A stretch of 60,460 nt of DNA from assembly GCA_045594565.1 (NCBI GenBank), contig JAZNYT010000121.1, positions 1 through 60,460 of the forward strand, in the 5' to 3' direction. A program made the translations under genes and the position numbers. Positions within the stretch are counted from its first letter, which is position 1; each line of letters begins with the position of its first letter. This document shows, one piece after another, positions 1,514 to 1,944 of the stretch. Under the pieces are notes generated by a model. It saw only the letters and a list, made by a program, of their open reading frames with translations, searched no databases and was not told the DNA's origin. This stretch comes from Eubacteriales bacterium. GTDB taxonomy: Bacteria > Bacillota > Clostridia > Oscillospirales > SIG627.

Positions 1514-1647
1514 ATAAATTCCCTCTCATTCTCTTTGATTTGACAACGAGGGGACAATTTCTCGTGTAGTTGCCTAAGAACCTCTTTCTTTTCCCTCTCG
1601 GTTAATCTCTTCCAAAGGCTTACGATTTCTCTATCAATATTATTCAT
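1498..1647 (-). CDS. Micro-ORF, 49 aa ([13 protein letters not shown] family)
   Basis: Read by hand: [30 protein letters not shown]...; ATGA overlap with upstream peptide; two paralogs in the window. Confidence 0.7.
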
Positions 1648-1751
1648 TTTCTCCACCCTCTCTGATGAAGATATAAGACGAGAGCTTTTAAGAGTTTGGA
1701 AATACCAAGCCCAATCATCACGATTGATAAAGTTAATAAAAATTCTTTCAT
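1644..1751 (-). CDS. Hydrophobic peptide A2, 35 aa
   Basis: AAGGAG RBS; [35 protein letters not shown]; paralog at 38241-38357. Confidence 0.7.
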   Translation of the reverse strand: MKEFLLTLSIVMIGLGISKLLKALVLYLHQRGWRK

Positions 1752-1760
1752 AATTACTCC

Positions 1761-1789
1761 TTGATTTTTTATTTTGTTTATGCTAAAAT
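1761..1789 (+). promoter_or_regulatory. Antisense sigma70-type promoter
   Basis: TTGATT-17 nt-TAAAAT with TG extended -10; identical at 38367-38395. Confidence 0.65.
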
Positions 1790-1795
1790 CAAGAG

Positions 1796-1937
1796 GAGAG
1801 GAAATCTCCTCTTGATTGTCGGTTGTTTTACAACCATTTAGCTATCAGGGTAAGTATAACCCCGACAATGAGGTCGACCAAACCGTTTACAATTAACTCG
1901 GCTAAGTTAATTTCGGTCTTGGTTGACCTTTTTCTTT
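1796..1937 (+). ncRNA. Predicted antisense RNA covering peptide A1
   Basis: Starts after the antisense promoter; ends in long hairpin AGGTCGACCAA...TTGGTTGACCT plus T-tract; ends approximate. Confidence 0.5.
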
Positions 1938-1944
1938 TCCTCAA
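1828..1944 (-). CDS. Hydrophobic peptide A1, 38 aa (type I toxin-like)
   Basis: GGGGGGTG RBS, TTG start; MRKRKRSTKTEINLAELIVNGLVDLIVGVILTLIAKWL; paralog at 38436-38552. Confidence 0.7.
   Translation of the reverse strand: MRKRKRSTKTEINLAELIVNGLVDLIVGVILTLIAKWL

What the first reader, a model, noticed from the sequence alone, without database searches (positions are those of the whole stretch)
1644..1944. Duplicated two-peptide locus with embedded antisense RNA (type I TA-like), copy A
Two unannotated membrane peptides (38 and 35 aa) recur, diverged, at 38241-38552. Between them is an identical antisense promoter. Its transcript would cover peptide 1 and end in a hairpin plus U-tract that lies inside the coding sequence. 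The stems covary between copies: ACCG/CGGT here versus CCAC/GTGG in copy B, around a conserved AATTAAC/GTTAATT stem. The 3' arm CTCCTCTTGATTTT of the intergenic hairpin can alternatively pair with the peptide-2 RBS (AAAATCAAGGAG), suggesting a switch. Single-peptide type I TA systems in clostridial prophages are established knowledge. I do not know of a described two-peptide form with this layout.
Basis: partly seen in the sequence, partly recalled or inferred. Interest (0 to 1): 0.8.

Follow-up and report, generated by a model that had tools for sequence, protein, structure and literature searches.

The report
Phage two-peptide cassette with antisense RNA
A temperate phage of an uncultured ruminant-gut Clostridia bacterium carries two copies of a small cassette, two tiny membrane peptides plus a hidden opposing RNA gene, which belongs to a widespread, uncatalogued family built like type I toxin-antitoxin systems but always with a second peptide.

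Summary
Both copies (A 1644-1944, B 38241-38552, minus strand) encode pep1 (38 aa, basic N-terminus, C-terminal membrane helix) and pep2 (35/38 aa, N-terminal helix, basic tail). Both peptides are under purifying selection (dN/dS about 0.2).

Between them, on the plus strand, lies a near-consensus promoter. Its predicted RNA of about 140 nt covers all of pep1. It ends in a 22-bp hairpin plus T-run inside pep1 codons 3-22.

I found 17 full relatives, and 15 more distant ones in viral contigs. All keep pep1, pep2, the antisense promoter and the antisense terminator. In the 14 closest loci the terminator covaries (10 of 22 pairs, 0/500 shuffles). It also folds better on the antisense strand.

No Pfam, NCBIfam, PHROG, PADLOC or Rfam family covers any part. 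The Fst hit is below threshold.

Best reading: a new type I toxin-antitoxin-like family with an obligate second peptide. Its own promoter carries an operator-like palindrome, suggesting control by a neighbouring HTH protein as well. The closest described layout is yonT/yoyJ/SR6 of Bacillus subtilis SPbeta, so a two-peptide form is not unprecedented.

The transcript, toxicity and the proposed ribosome-binding-site switch remain untested. No stranded RNA data were available.

The parts
1978..2006 (-). P1-A: promoter of the pep1-pep2 operon, TTGATT-17-TATAAT with TG. An 18-bp palindrome, ATCACTAAAAATAGTGAT (1983-2000), sits in the spacer and is the presumed operator of the divergent XRE protein.
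   Evidence: Equivalent promoters with different palindromes occur in relatives.
2095..2316 (+). Divergent XRE/HTH_26 regulator of copy A, the presumed repressor of P1-A.
   Evidence: Pfam HTH_26, E 1e-13. The same gene lies beside the cassette in L022, L038, L046 and L051.
1828..1944 (-). pep1-A, 38 aa, TTG start: basic N-terminus, then a membrane helix with conserved Glu16 and invariant Asp24 (motif GL(I/V)DLIVG).
   Evidence: dN/dS 0.20; 51 clusters of relatives.
1787..1817 (.). Intergenic 13-bp hairpin. Its core forms the predicted 5' stem-loop of the antisense RNA. On the sense RNA, its 3' arm can alternatively pair with the pep2 ribosome-binding site.
   Evidence: Compensatory changes are seen among homologues.
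1761..1789 (+). Pas-A: antisense promoter TTGATT-17-TAAAAT with an extended -10 TG. The -35 box lies 9 nt upstream of the pep2 ATG and overlaps its Shine-Dalgarno region.
   Evidence: Conserved at this position in 17 of 17 full loci and 15 of 15 distant loci.
1796..1938 (+). Predicted antisense RNA A, about 138-143 nt. It has a 5' stem-loop, a middle stem, and a terminator hairpin at about 1870-1928 followed by a T-tract at 1929-1938. It is complementary to all of pep1 from codon 3 onward.
   Evidence: The start site is inferred as +7 from the -10 box.
1644..1751 (-). pep2-A, 35 aa: N-terminal membrane helix with invariant Gly16 and Lys19, then a basic C-terminal tail.
   Evidence: (dN/dS 0.17).
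38436..38552 (-). pep1-B, 38 aa, ATG start. It begins 27 nt after the stop of cro (38580-38801), so it is transcribed from the early lytic promoter at 38822-38850.
38367..38395 (+). Pas-B: antisense promoter identical to Pas-A.
38402..38543 (+). Predicted antisense RNA B, about 142 nt. The terminator hairpin lies at about 38478-38536 and the T7 tract at 38537-38543.
38241..38357 (-). pep2-B, 38 aa.

Best explanation
Each copy is a self-contained phage cassette of a previously uncatalogued family. [quoted passage not shown]

Shown by sequence comparison:
- A sense promoter, either the cassette's own promoter carrying an operator-like palindrome or the phage early lytic promoter behind cro, transcribes pep1 and then pep2.
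- A strong, probably constitutive, convergent promoter sits between the two genes. It produces an RNA of about 140 nt that begins with a GC stem-loop and is fully complementary to pep1.
- That RNA ends at an intrinsic terminator. The terminator stem is built from the antisense of the invariant LIDL codons paired with the antisense of the N-terminal codons. Its U-tract is the antisense of the poly-lysine codons.

Inferred:
- A neighbouring HTH protein binds the palindrome in the sense promoter and represses it.
- While the sense promoter is repressed, the antisense RNA is in excess. It pairs with leaky pep1 mRNA from codon 3 onward, blocks ribosome loading and exposes the duplex to RNase III, so no pep1 is made.
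- In copies A and B and their closest relatives, this pairing also opens the intergenic hairpin. The freed 3' arm (CUCUUGAUUUU) can then occlude the pep2 Shine-Dalgarno sequence, so one RNA silences both peptides.
- When the repressor is lost (prophage induction, loss of the element, or perhaps infection), sense transcription outruns the antisense RNA. Both peptides then insert into the membrane with opposite topology.
- The invariant mid-helix Asp of pep1 and the invariant mid-helix Lys of pep2 suggest the peptides act as a hetero-oligomer that damages or remodels the membrane.
For: Genes are real:
- ORFs, start codons and Shine-Dalgarno sites are conserved in all loci.
- dN/dS is 0.20 for pep1 and 0.17 for pep2.

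Antisense promoter:
- TTGAYT/TTGACA-16/17-TAnnAT is present in 17 of 17 full loci. This includes subfamily 2, where the spacer region is unrelated in sequence yet carries a perfect TTGACA-17-TATAAT.
- In 14 of the 15 distant viral loci it is kept as an extended -10 box, TGnTAnnnT, with the n position free to vary. The fifteenth, L077, keeps the close-group TTGATT-17-TACAAT with TG.

Terminator:
- Every locus has a hairpin plus T-run, with dG -14 to -34 kcal/mol and z -1.8 to -7.2.
- In the 14 closest loci, 10 of 22 pairs covary, 95% of cells are paired, and 0/500 shuffles match.
- There are 13 G-U pairs on the antisense strand against 2 on the sense strand.
- 13 of 15 distant loci fold 5-14 kcal/mol better on the antisense strand.
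- The T-run exists only on the antisense strand.

Module behaviour:
- The same pep1/RNA/pep2 unit occurs in three contexts: behind cro; as the first genes of a promoter divergent from an XRE gene; and after the endolysin followed by an HTH gene.
- In L044/L045, pep1 and the -10 box of the antisense promoter were lost together while pep2 persists.

Peptide architecture: a single helix plus a basic end, as in known type I toxins (PMC6563280).

Switch: constrained folds support it in 7 loci.

Precedent: one antisense RNA serving two tandem toxins is described (PMC5848175).
Against: - No transcript was observed. The only RNA-labelled run holds a 176-nt unstranded contig of a relative, which also covers pep2.
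- Toxicity is untested, and no known toxin family is matched above threshold.
- Most cassettes are the first genes of longer operons rather than isolated modules.
- A third cassette in the same phage uses the same chassis of promoter, hairpin and antisense promoter with a soluble 37-aa first ORF. The antisense promoter may therefore be a general operon-control device rather than an antitoxin gene.
- The switch shows no covariation and is not evident in the wider family.
- pep2 survives alone in L044/L045, so it may be neither a toxin nor an obligate partner.
Confidence: 0.6

Rival explanations
1. The antisense promoter is an operon-internal brake rather than an antitoxin gene. It would act by convergent transcription and RNA pairing. 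It would set how much early or moron transcription reaches the downstream genes (pep2, the HTH gene, the HNH-AP2 nuclease, the recombination genes). The two peptides would be ordinary phage membrane proteins, for example for superinfection exclusion or host takeover.
For: - The cassettes sit at the head of longer operons.
- The third cassette, at 24415-25047, has the same XRE, operator promoter, hairpin and TTGATT-17-TATAAT antisense promoter, but a soluble first ORF. Its short antisense RNA stops before that ORF.
- The -35 box of the antisense promoter overlaps the pep2 ribosome-binding site.
Against: - In all 32 two-peptide loci the antisense terminator is embedded in pep1, so the RNA spans exactly that ORF.
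- pep1 and the antisense -10 box are lost together in L044/L045.
- The unit moves as pep1/RNA/pep2 regardless of what follows it.
Confidence: 0.2
2. The pair is a lysis-timing device, a small holin/antiholin-like pair, attached to the lysis cassette.
For: - In the canonical context the cassette directly follows the endolysin. Copy A lies 430 nt from the endolysin gene.
- There are weak holin-profile hits (PF16083 E 0.03-0.06; phrog_785 E 0.009).
Against: - All holin hits are below threshold.
- The cassette has its own operator-controlled promoter and an HTH gene, and is not in the late operon.
- In L047 a separate r1t-type holin precedes the endolysin on the other strand.
- Copy B and its relatives sit in the early operon behind cro.
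Confidence: 0.08
3. The antisense promoter is a lambda P_RE-like promoter that reads back through cro into the repressor gene.
For: In copies A and B, the next gene downstream in the antisense direction is an HTH repressor (2095-2316; 38903-39280).
Against: - A strong, covarying terminator stops the RNA inside pep1 in every locus.
- In the commonest context the upstream neighbour is the endolysin on the sense strand, so there is no gene to express.
Confidence: 0.04

Closest known systems
yonT/yoyJ/SR6 of Bacillus subtilis prophage SPbeta (Reif, Loeser and Brantl 2018, PMC5848175)
   Same: - It is prophage-borne.
- Two small toxin ORFs lie in tandem on a polycistronic mRNA.
- One antisense RNA of about 100 nt is encoded between them.
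- The antitoxin acts on the first toxin through an RNA duplex and RNase III, and is proposed to act on the second at its ribosome-binding site.
   Different: - SR6 overlaps only the 3' 65 bp of yonT and 30-40 bp of the yoyJ 5' region. Here the RNA covers all of pep1, and its start lies upstream of the pep2 ribosome-binding site.
- yoyJ is degenerate in other Bacillus species. Here pep2 is kept in 32 of 32 loci.
- There is no sequence similarity.
- The peptides here are 32-45 aa, against 58 aa for YonT.
ibs/Sib and related E. coli type I systems, where the antisense RNA spans the whole toxin ORF
   Same: An RNA of about 140 nt is encoded directly opposite a tiny membrane-peptide ORF and covers it fully.
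   Different: - These are Proteobacterial systems with a single peptide.
- There is no homology: the Rfam SIB_RNA hit scores 16 bits against a gathering score of 56.
Fst/RNAII (par) family, Pfam PF13955 and NCBIfam NF033608
   Same: The C-terminal 13 residues of some pep1 members (ITLIAKWL) resemble the Fst helix. Fst is also a membrane peptide of Firmicutes mobile elements.
   Different: - Scores of 18-22 bits fall below the cut-offs of 36 and 26. Only 3 of 9 close members, and 2 of 41 in the wider set, match.
- The architecture is reversed: pep1 has a basic N-terminus and its helix at the C-terminus.
- There is no shared bidirectional terminator and no DRa/DRb repeats.
Clostridioides difficile prophage type I systems (CD0977.1-RCd11 and others; PMC7699646, PMC6563280)
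   Same: - They occur in prophages of Clostridia.
- The toxins are 30-56 aa with a hydrophobic N-terminus and a lysine-rich C-terminus, which matches pep2.
- The antisense RNAs are 125-150 nt.
   Different: - Those systems have one peptide per module.
- No family model matches pep2.
- Here the antisense RNA is opposite pep1, not pep2.
tisB/istR-1 and RacR-ydaS/ydaT: repressor-gated toxic genes
   Same: The toxin promoter is held off by a DNA-binding repressor (LexA; RacR, PMC5700377). In tisB a constitutive small RNA additionally buffers leaky expression.
   Different: They differ in proteins, organisms and RNA geometry. The analogy is of logic only.

Membership tests
Type I toxin-antitoxin system (generic) | Small (<60 aa) hydrophobic membrane peptide as the toxin candidate | tested here: met
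   pep1 is 38 aa and pep2 is 35/38 aa. Each has a single predicted helix plus a basic end, and both are under purifying selection.
Type I toxin-antitoxin system (generic) | Cis-encoded antisense RNA gene with its own promoter and terminator, overlapping the toxin mRNA | tested here: met
   The promoter and the covarying terminator are conserved in 32 loci, and the fold is strand-specific. This rests on sequence comparison only. The transcript itself was not seen.
Type I toxin-antitoxin system (generic) | The peptide is toxic when overproduced | not testable with these tools
   Needs expression in a laboratory strain.
Type I toxin-antitoxin system (generic) | The RNA prevents toxin synthesis | not testable with these tools
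   Needs reporter fusions and promoter knock-outs. No stranded RNA data were found.
Fst toxin family (PF13955 / NF033608) | Profile match at or above the curated cut-off | tested here: not met
   Scores are 18-22 bits against cut-offs of 36 and 26. Only members ending in ...AKWL match.
Fst/par locus architecture | Convergent RNAs that share a bidirectional terminator and 5' direct repeats | tested here: not met
   The antisense RNA starts downstream of pep1 and terminates inside its 5' coding region.
yonT/yoyJ/SR6 | Sequence homology of the peptides or the RNA | tested here: not met
   No Pfam, NCBIfam or Rfam hit was found. Only the layout is shared.
Phage holins | Match to a holin profile, and a position in the late lysis cassette | tested here: not met
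   Only sub-threshold hits were found. The cassette has its own operator-controlled promoter or an early-operon position.
Known anti-phage defence systems (PADLOC) | Match of either peptide to a defence-system model | tested here: not met
   Neither peptide matches. Only generic HTH hits were returned for the regulator.

The most novel reading that the evidence does not exclude
The module is a four-part system unlike any described toxin-antitoxin type.

- pep1 (invariant mid-membrane Asp) and pep2 (invariant mid-membrane Lys) have opposite topology. They would form a salt-bridged heteromer in which pep2 is a protein partner or antidote of pep1.
- An antisense RNA and an HTH repressor would gate the ratio of the two peptides.
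- The RNA terminator is written into the peptide's own invariant LIDL codons. The peptide sequence and the RNA structure therefore constrain each other across a large phage-borne family.

Its role would be prophage addiction or abortive-infection defence in gut Clostridia.
Probability: 0.2. Interest if true: 0.8.

Novelty: new variant of a known kind. Interest (0 to 1): 0.55.

Why it matters
If the model holds, this is a large and entirely unannotated family. The pep1 profile finds 51 clusters at 50% identity, and one narrow DNA pattern finds 33 viral-contig loci. All of them come from public genome, metagenome and viral-contig collections; the sources I could trace are herbivore-gut samples.

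The family shows three things together:
- one antisense RNA paired with two conserved membrane peptides;
- what looks like a double lock, an HTH repressor (inferred from the operator-like palindrome) plus the RNA;
- an intrinsic terminator encoded within, and co-evolving with, the peptide's most conserved codons. This is a clean example of dual coding.

It would add a new type I family for Clostridia. It would also give a compact, portable kill-switch or counter-selection cassette. Finally, it would explain two recurrent "empty" gaps in phage annotation: behind cro, and after the endolysin.

Tried and rejected
No hit or not usable:
- Rfam at gathering thresholds on the whole window, and E-value scans of both loci, found nothing meaningful.
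- blastn of locus A, and tblastn of two family peptides, against 50,697 cultured-phage records gave no match.
- Two strict DNA patterns in viral contigs gave none.
- A metagenome pattern gave one spurious hit inside a 582-aa ORF. The G022 DNA hit was an unrelated ribosome-binding site and signal peptide.
- The search for related loci refuses peptides this short.
- Order-level genome search with the narrow pep1 profile found only one further true relative, G034.
- RNA evidence: the four run searches found DNA metagenomes from bovine, sheep, goat and gut samples. They also found one RNA-labelled run with an unstranded, low-depth 176-nt contig of a relative. It is not informative.

Ideas rejected:
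- Fst membership, because scores are below threshold and the architecture is reversed.
- A lambda P_RE-like promoter, because the terminator is conserved and, in the commonest context, there is no gene downstream.
- Coding potential of the antisense RNA. There are only TTG starts behind CU-rich sequence, no Shine-Dalgarno site, and the frame is broken in L039.
- The intergenic hairpin as a general sense-strand terminator. A U-tract follows it only in A, B, L042 and L051, and none follows it in the wide family.

Full report
**What is at the coordinates.**
- On the minus strand, copy A encodes pep1 (1828-1944, TTG start, 38 aa) and pep2 (1644-1751, 35 aa). Copy B encodes pep1 (38436-38552, ATG start, 38 aa) and pep2 (38241-38357, 38 aa).
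- The loci align at 84% identity. A stretch of about 93 nt, from the intergenic hairpin into pep2 codon 8, has one mismatch.
- The genome is a 2.0-Mb, 126-contig assembly with exactly these two copies.
- The DNA runs that hold the sequence are bovine, sheep, goat and other gut metagenomes. Related genome records are titled Clostridia or Eubacteriales MAGs from roe deer colon and water buffalo caecum.

**Phage context.**
- The window holds a temperate phage. Its genes include:
  - integrase 41913-42941;
  - a Bro-N domain gene;
  - hicAB;
  - cI-like gene 38903-39280(+);
  - cro-like gene 38580-38801(-);
  - YqaJ and RecT recombination genes;
  - structural genes;
  - endolysin 2377-3351(-).
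- Bases 1-128 are identical to 42893-43020. This is as expected if the contig wraps around the attachment site. Copy A, which lies between the attachment site and the endolysin, therefore belongs to the same phage genome of about 42.9 kb as copy B, which lies directly behind cro.

**Both peptides are genes.**
- I gathered 17 full loci from genomes, ENA, NCBI and Logan assemblies.
- All of them keep both ORFs, a Shine-Dalgarno site at the right spacing, and no frame breaks.
- Median pairwise dN/dS is 0.20 for pep1 and 0.17 for pep2.
- pep1 has a Lys/Arg-rich N-terminus followed by a helix, INLxELIISGLIDLxVG..., with invariant Glu16 and Asp24.
- pep2 is a helix with invariant Gly16 and Lys19, followed by a basic tail.
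- By the positive-inside rule (established knowledge) the two peptides would span the membrane in opposite directions. That places an invariant acidic and an invariant basic residue mid-membrane. This is inference.

**The antisense gene.**
- Promoter in the close loci. Between the peptides on the plus strand lies TTGATT-17-TAAAAT with an extended -10 TG, identical in A and B.
  - One locus alone is not significant: 5 promoter-like sites were found against 3.2 expected. Conservation across loci is what carries weight.
  - All 17 loci have TTGAYT or TTGACA, a 16-17-nt spacer and TAnnAT, with the -35 box 9-13 nt upstream of the pep2 ATG. Variation is confined to -10 positions 3 and 4 and to the n of TGn.
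  - In subfamily 2 (G034, L043, L048) the intergenic sequence is unrelated, yet it carries a perfect TTGACA-17-TATAAT.
- Terminator. From a start site taken as +7, the RNA would be 133-174 nt.
  - It ends in a long hairpin followed directly by T5-T7, with dG -15 to -34 kcal/mol and z -3.4 to -7.2.
  - RNAalifold recovers the hairpin.
  - On 14 sequences, 22 pairs are 95% paired. Ten pairs change on both sides, in 26 cells. No shuffle out of 500 reaches this, and slid registers fall to 17-49% paired.
- Strand. Three observations point to the antisense strand:
  - 13 G-U pairs on the antisense strand against 2 on the sense strand;
  - the T-run exists only on the antisense strand;
  - the antisense fold is the more stable one in most loci.
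- Construction of the stem. The stem pairs the antisense of the LIDL codons with the antisense of the N-terminal codons (RSTK). The U-tract is the antisense of the poly-lysine codons.

**A much larger family.**
- A pep1 profile searched against 1.84 billion cluster representatives finds 51 clusters at E <= 1e-3. All are 35-81 aa, with a poly-Lys N-terminus and the (G/A)L(I/V)DLIVG motif.
- None is covered by Pfam, NCBIfam, PHROGs or PADLOC. The motif occurs in no searchable paper.
- A degenerate DNA pattern for the motif retrieves 34 viral contigs, of which 33 are true members.
- In all 15 distinct loci with enough sequence downstream I found:
  - a pep2-like ORF 66-87 nt downstream, with the same mid-helix Lys;
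  - a GC hairpin right after the pep1 stop, followed on the antisense strand by an extended -10 box, TGnTAnnnT, with n free;
  - an antisense hairpin plus T-run in which the LIDL codons now pair with KPI(N/K) codons, so both the nucleotides and the N-terminal residues have changed together;
  - an own TTGACA-17-TATAAT sense promoter, with a palindrome of varying sequence in the spacer.
- 13 of the 15 fold 5-14 kcal/mol better on the antisense strand.
- In L068 the order is endolysin, pep1, pep2, then a 64-aa XRE HTH gene. L039, L042 and L047 show pep1, pep2 and an HTH gene, with an endolysin directly upstream in L039 and convergent downstream in L047.

**Contexts.** The pep1/RNA/pep2 unit occurs in three settings:
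- behind cro in the early operon (B, L018, L019, L020);
- as the first genes of a promoter divergent from an XRE gene, followed by micro-ORFs and an HNH-AP2-like nuclease gene in most of them, but by replication genes in L038 (A, G026, L022, L038, L046, L051);
- after or beside the endolysin, followed by an HTH gene.

It therefore behaves as a portable module. Two decayed cases are informative:
- In L044/L045 a nuclease gene replaces pep1 and removes the antisense -10 box, while pep2 remains.
- In L049/L050 pep1 has lost its start while the antisense promoter remains.

**Mechanism.**
- Shown: the promoter, the terminator, full complementarity to pep1 from codon 3 onward, and the operator-like palindromes.
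- Inferred: the RNA blocks pep1 translation and triggers duplex cleavage, as SR4, SR5, SR6 and RatA do (PMC5848175, PMC6563280).
- Inferred: the HTH protein represses the sense promoter. The RNA would then only have to absorb leaky transcripts, as in the tisB/istR-1 logic.
- The switch. Constrained folding shows what happens when the part of the sense RNA covered by the antisense RNA is made unavailable. The remaining 3' arm of the intergenic hairpin then pairs with the pep2 Shine-Dalgarno window. In A, B, G031, L018, L020, L022 and L051, pairing of that window rises from 0-4 of 12 bases to 9-12 of 12.
  - There is no covariation, and the wide family lacks the repeat. I therefore rate it as possible, not established.
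- The intergenic hairpin is followed by a U-tract on the sense strand only in A, B and a few relatives. It is better read as the 5' stem-loop of the antisense RNA than as a terminator.

**Comparison with known systems.**
- Fst: the hits score 18-22 bits against cut-offs of 36 and 26. They cover 13 residues and appear in a minority of members. The cassette is not a member.
- Rfam: nothing was found, including SIB_RNA at 16 bits against a gathering score of 56.
- The closest described layout is yonT/yoyJ/SR6. It has one antisense RNA between two tandem prophage toxin genes, with different proposed actions on each.
- This family nevertheless differs from SR6 in three ways:
  - the RNA covers the whole first ORF;
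  - the second peptide is universally conserved;
  - an HTH gene lies beside the cassette in its own-promoter contexts (divergent XRE, or a downstream HTH gene); the copies behind cro use the phage's early promoter instead.

**Rivals.**
- A third cassette in this phage argues that the antisense promoter may be a general operon brake. It has the same XRE, operator promoter, hairpin and antisense-promoter chassis, with the XRE gene at 24832-25047 and the antisense promoter at 24415-24443. Its first ORF, however, is a soluble 37-aa protein, and its short antisense RNA stops before that ORF. I give this reading 0.2.
- A lysis-timing role (0.08) and a P_RE-like promoter (0.04) fit the data poorly.

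**Limits.** Start sites are inferred. Toxicity is untested.

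Noticed in passing
window 24415-25047 (XRE 24832-25047 +; 37-aa ORF 24533-24646 -; antisense promoter 24415-24443 +; HNH-AP2-like gene 23356-24072 -): A third cassette shares the same chassis: a divergent XRE gene, an operator promoter, a first small ORF, a GC hairpin, and a TTGATT-17-TATAAT antisense promoter. Its first ORF is a soluble acidic 37-aa protein, and its predicted antisense RNA of about 80 nt ends before that ORF. 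L046 carries pep1-pep2 at the equivalent position, between the portal and MuF genes.
   Followed up: partly
window 1-128 and 42893-43020: The two stretches are exact 128-bp repeats (integrase end and attachment core). The contig therefore wraps around one phage genome of about 42.9 kb, and both cassette copies belong to it.
   Followed up: yes
window 1752-1827 versus 38358-38435: The intergenic region of copy B is 92% identical to that of copy A, but only 74-78% identical to those of B's nearest relatives by peptide sequence. This looks like gene conversion between the two copies within the phage. As a result both antisense RNAs share the same promoter and first 20 nt or so.
   Followed up: partly
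L044/L045 2297-3117: An HNH-AP2-like gene, a homologue of window 845-1513, sits where pep1 and the antisense -10 box should be. pep2 is left alone behind it.
   Followed up: partly
window 1983-2000, and the promoter spacers of relatives: Every own-promoter copy has a palindrome between the -35 and -10 boxes. Its sequence differs from lineage to lineage (ATCACTA-N4-TAGTGAT, ATATACC-N5-GGTATAT, CACGC-N3-GCGTG, TAAGGTTAACCTTA). This fits operators matched to cognate HTH proteins.
   Followed up: no
window 1822-1838, and equivalents in relatives: A small hairpin encloses the pep1 stop codon in its loop (GGUUGUAAAACAACC). It is kept with different sequences in relatives (CGG...CCG). It forms the second stem region of the predicted antisense RNA.
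   Followed up: no
viral loci L055-L084, 5' UTR of pep1: In the wide family the leader is about 60 nt long. It carries a covarying mini-hairpin (GCGCAAAGCGC, GUGCAAAGCAC or ACGCAAAGCGU) directly upstream of the pep1 Shine-Dalgarno site, plus an earlier Shine-Dalgarno-like GAAAGGAG.
   Followed up: no
window 1942-1944, and relatives G026, L022, L038, L039, L042, L046, L047, L051: Close-group copies with their own promoter use a TTG start for pep1, whereas copies behind cro use ATG. This is consistent with tuning down translation where transcription is direct.
   Followed up: no
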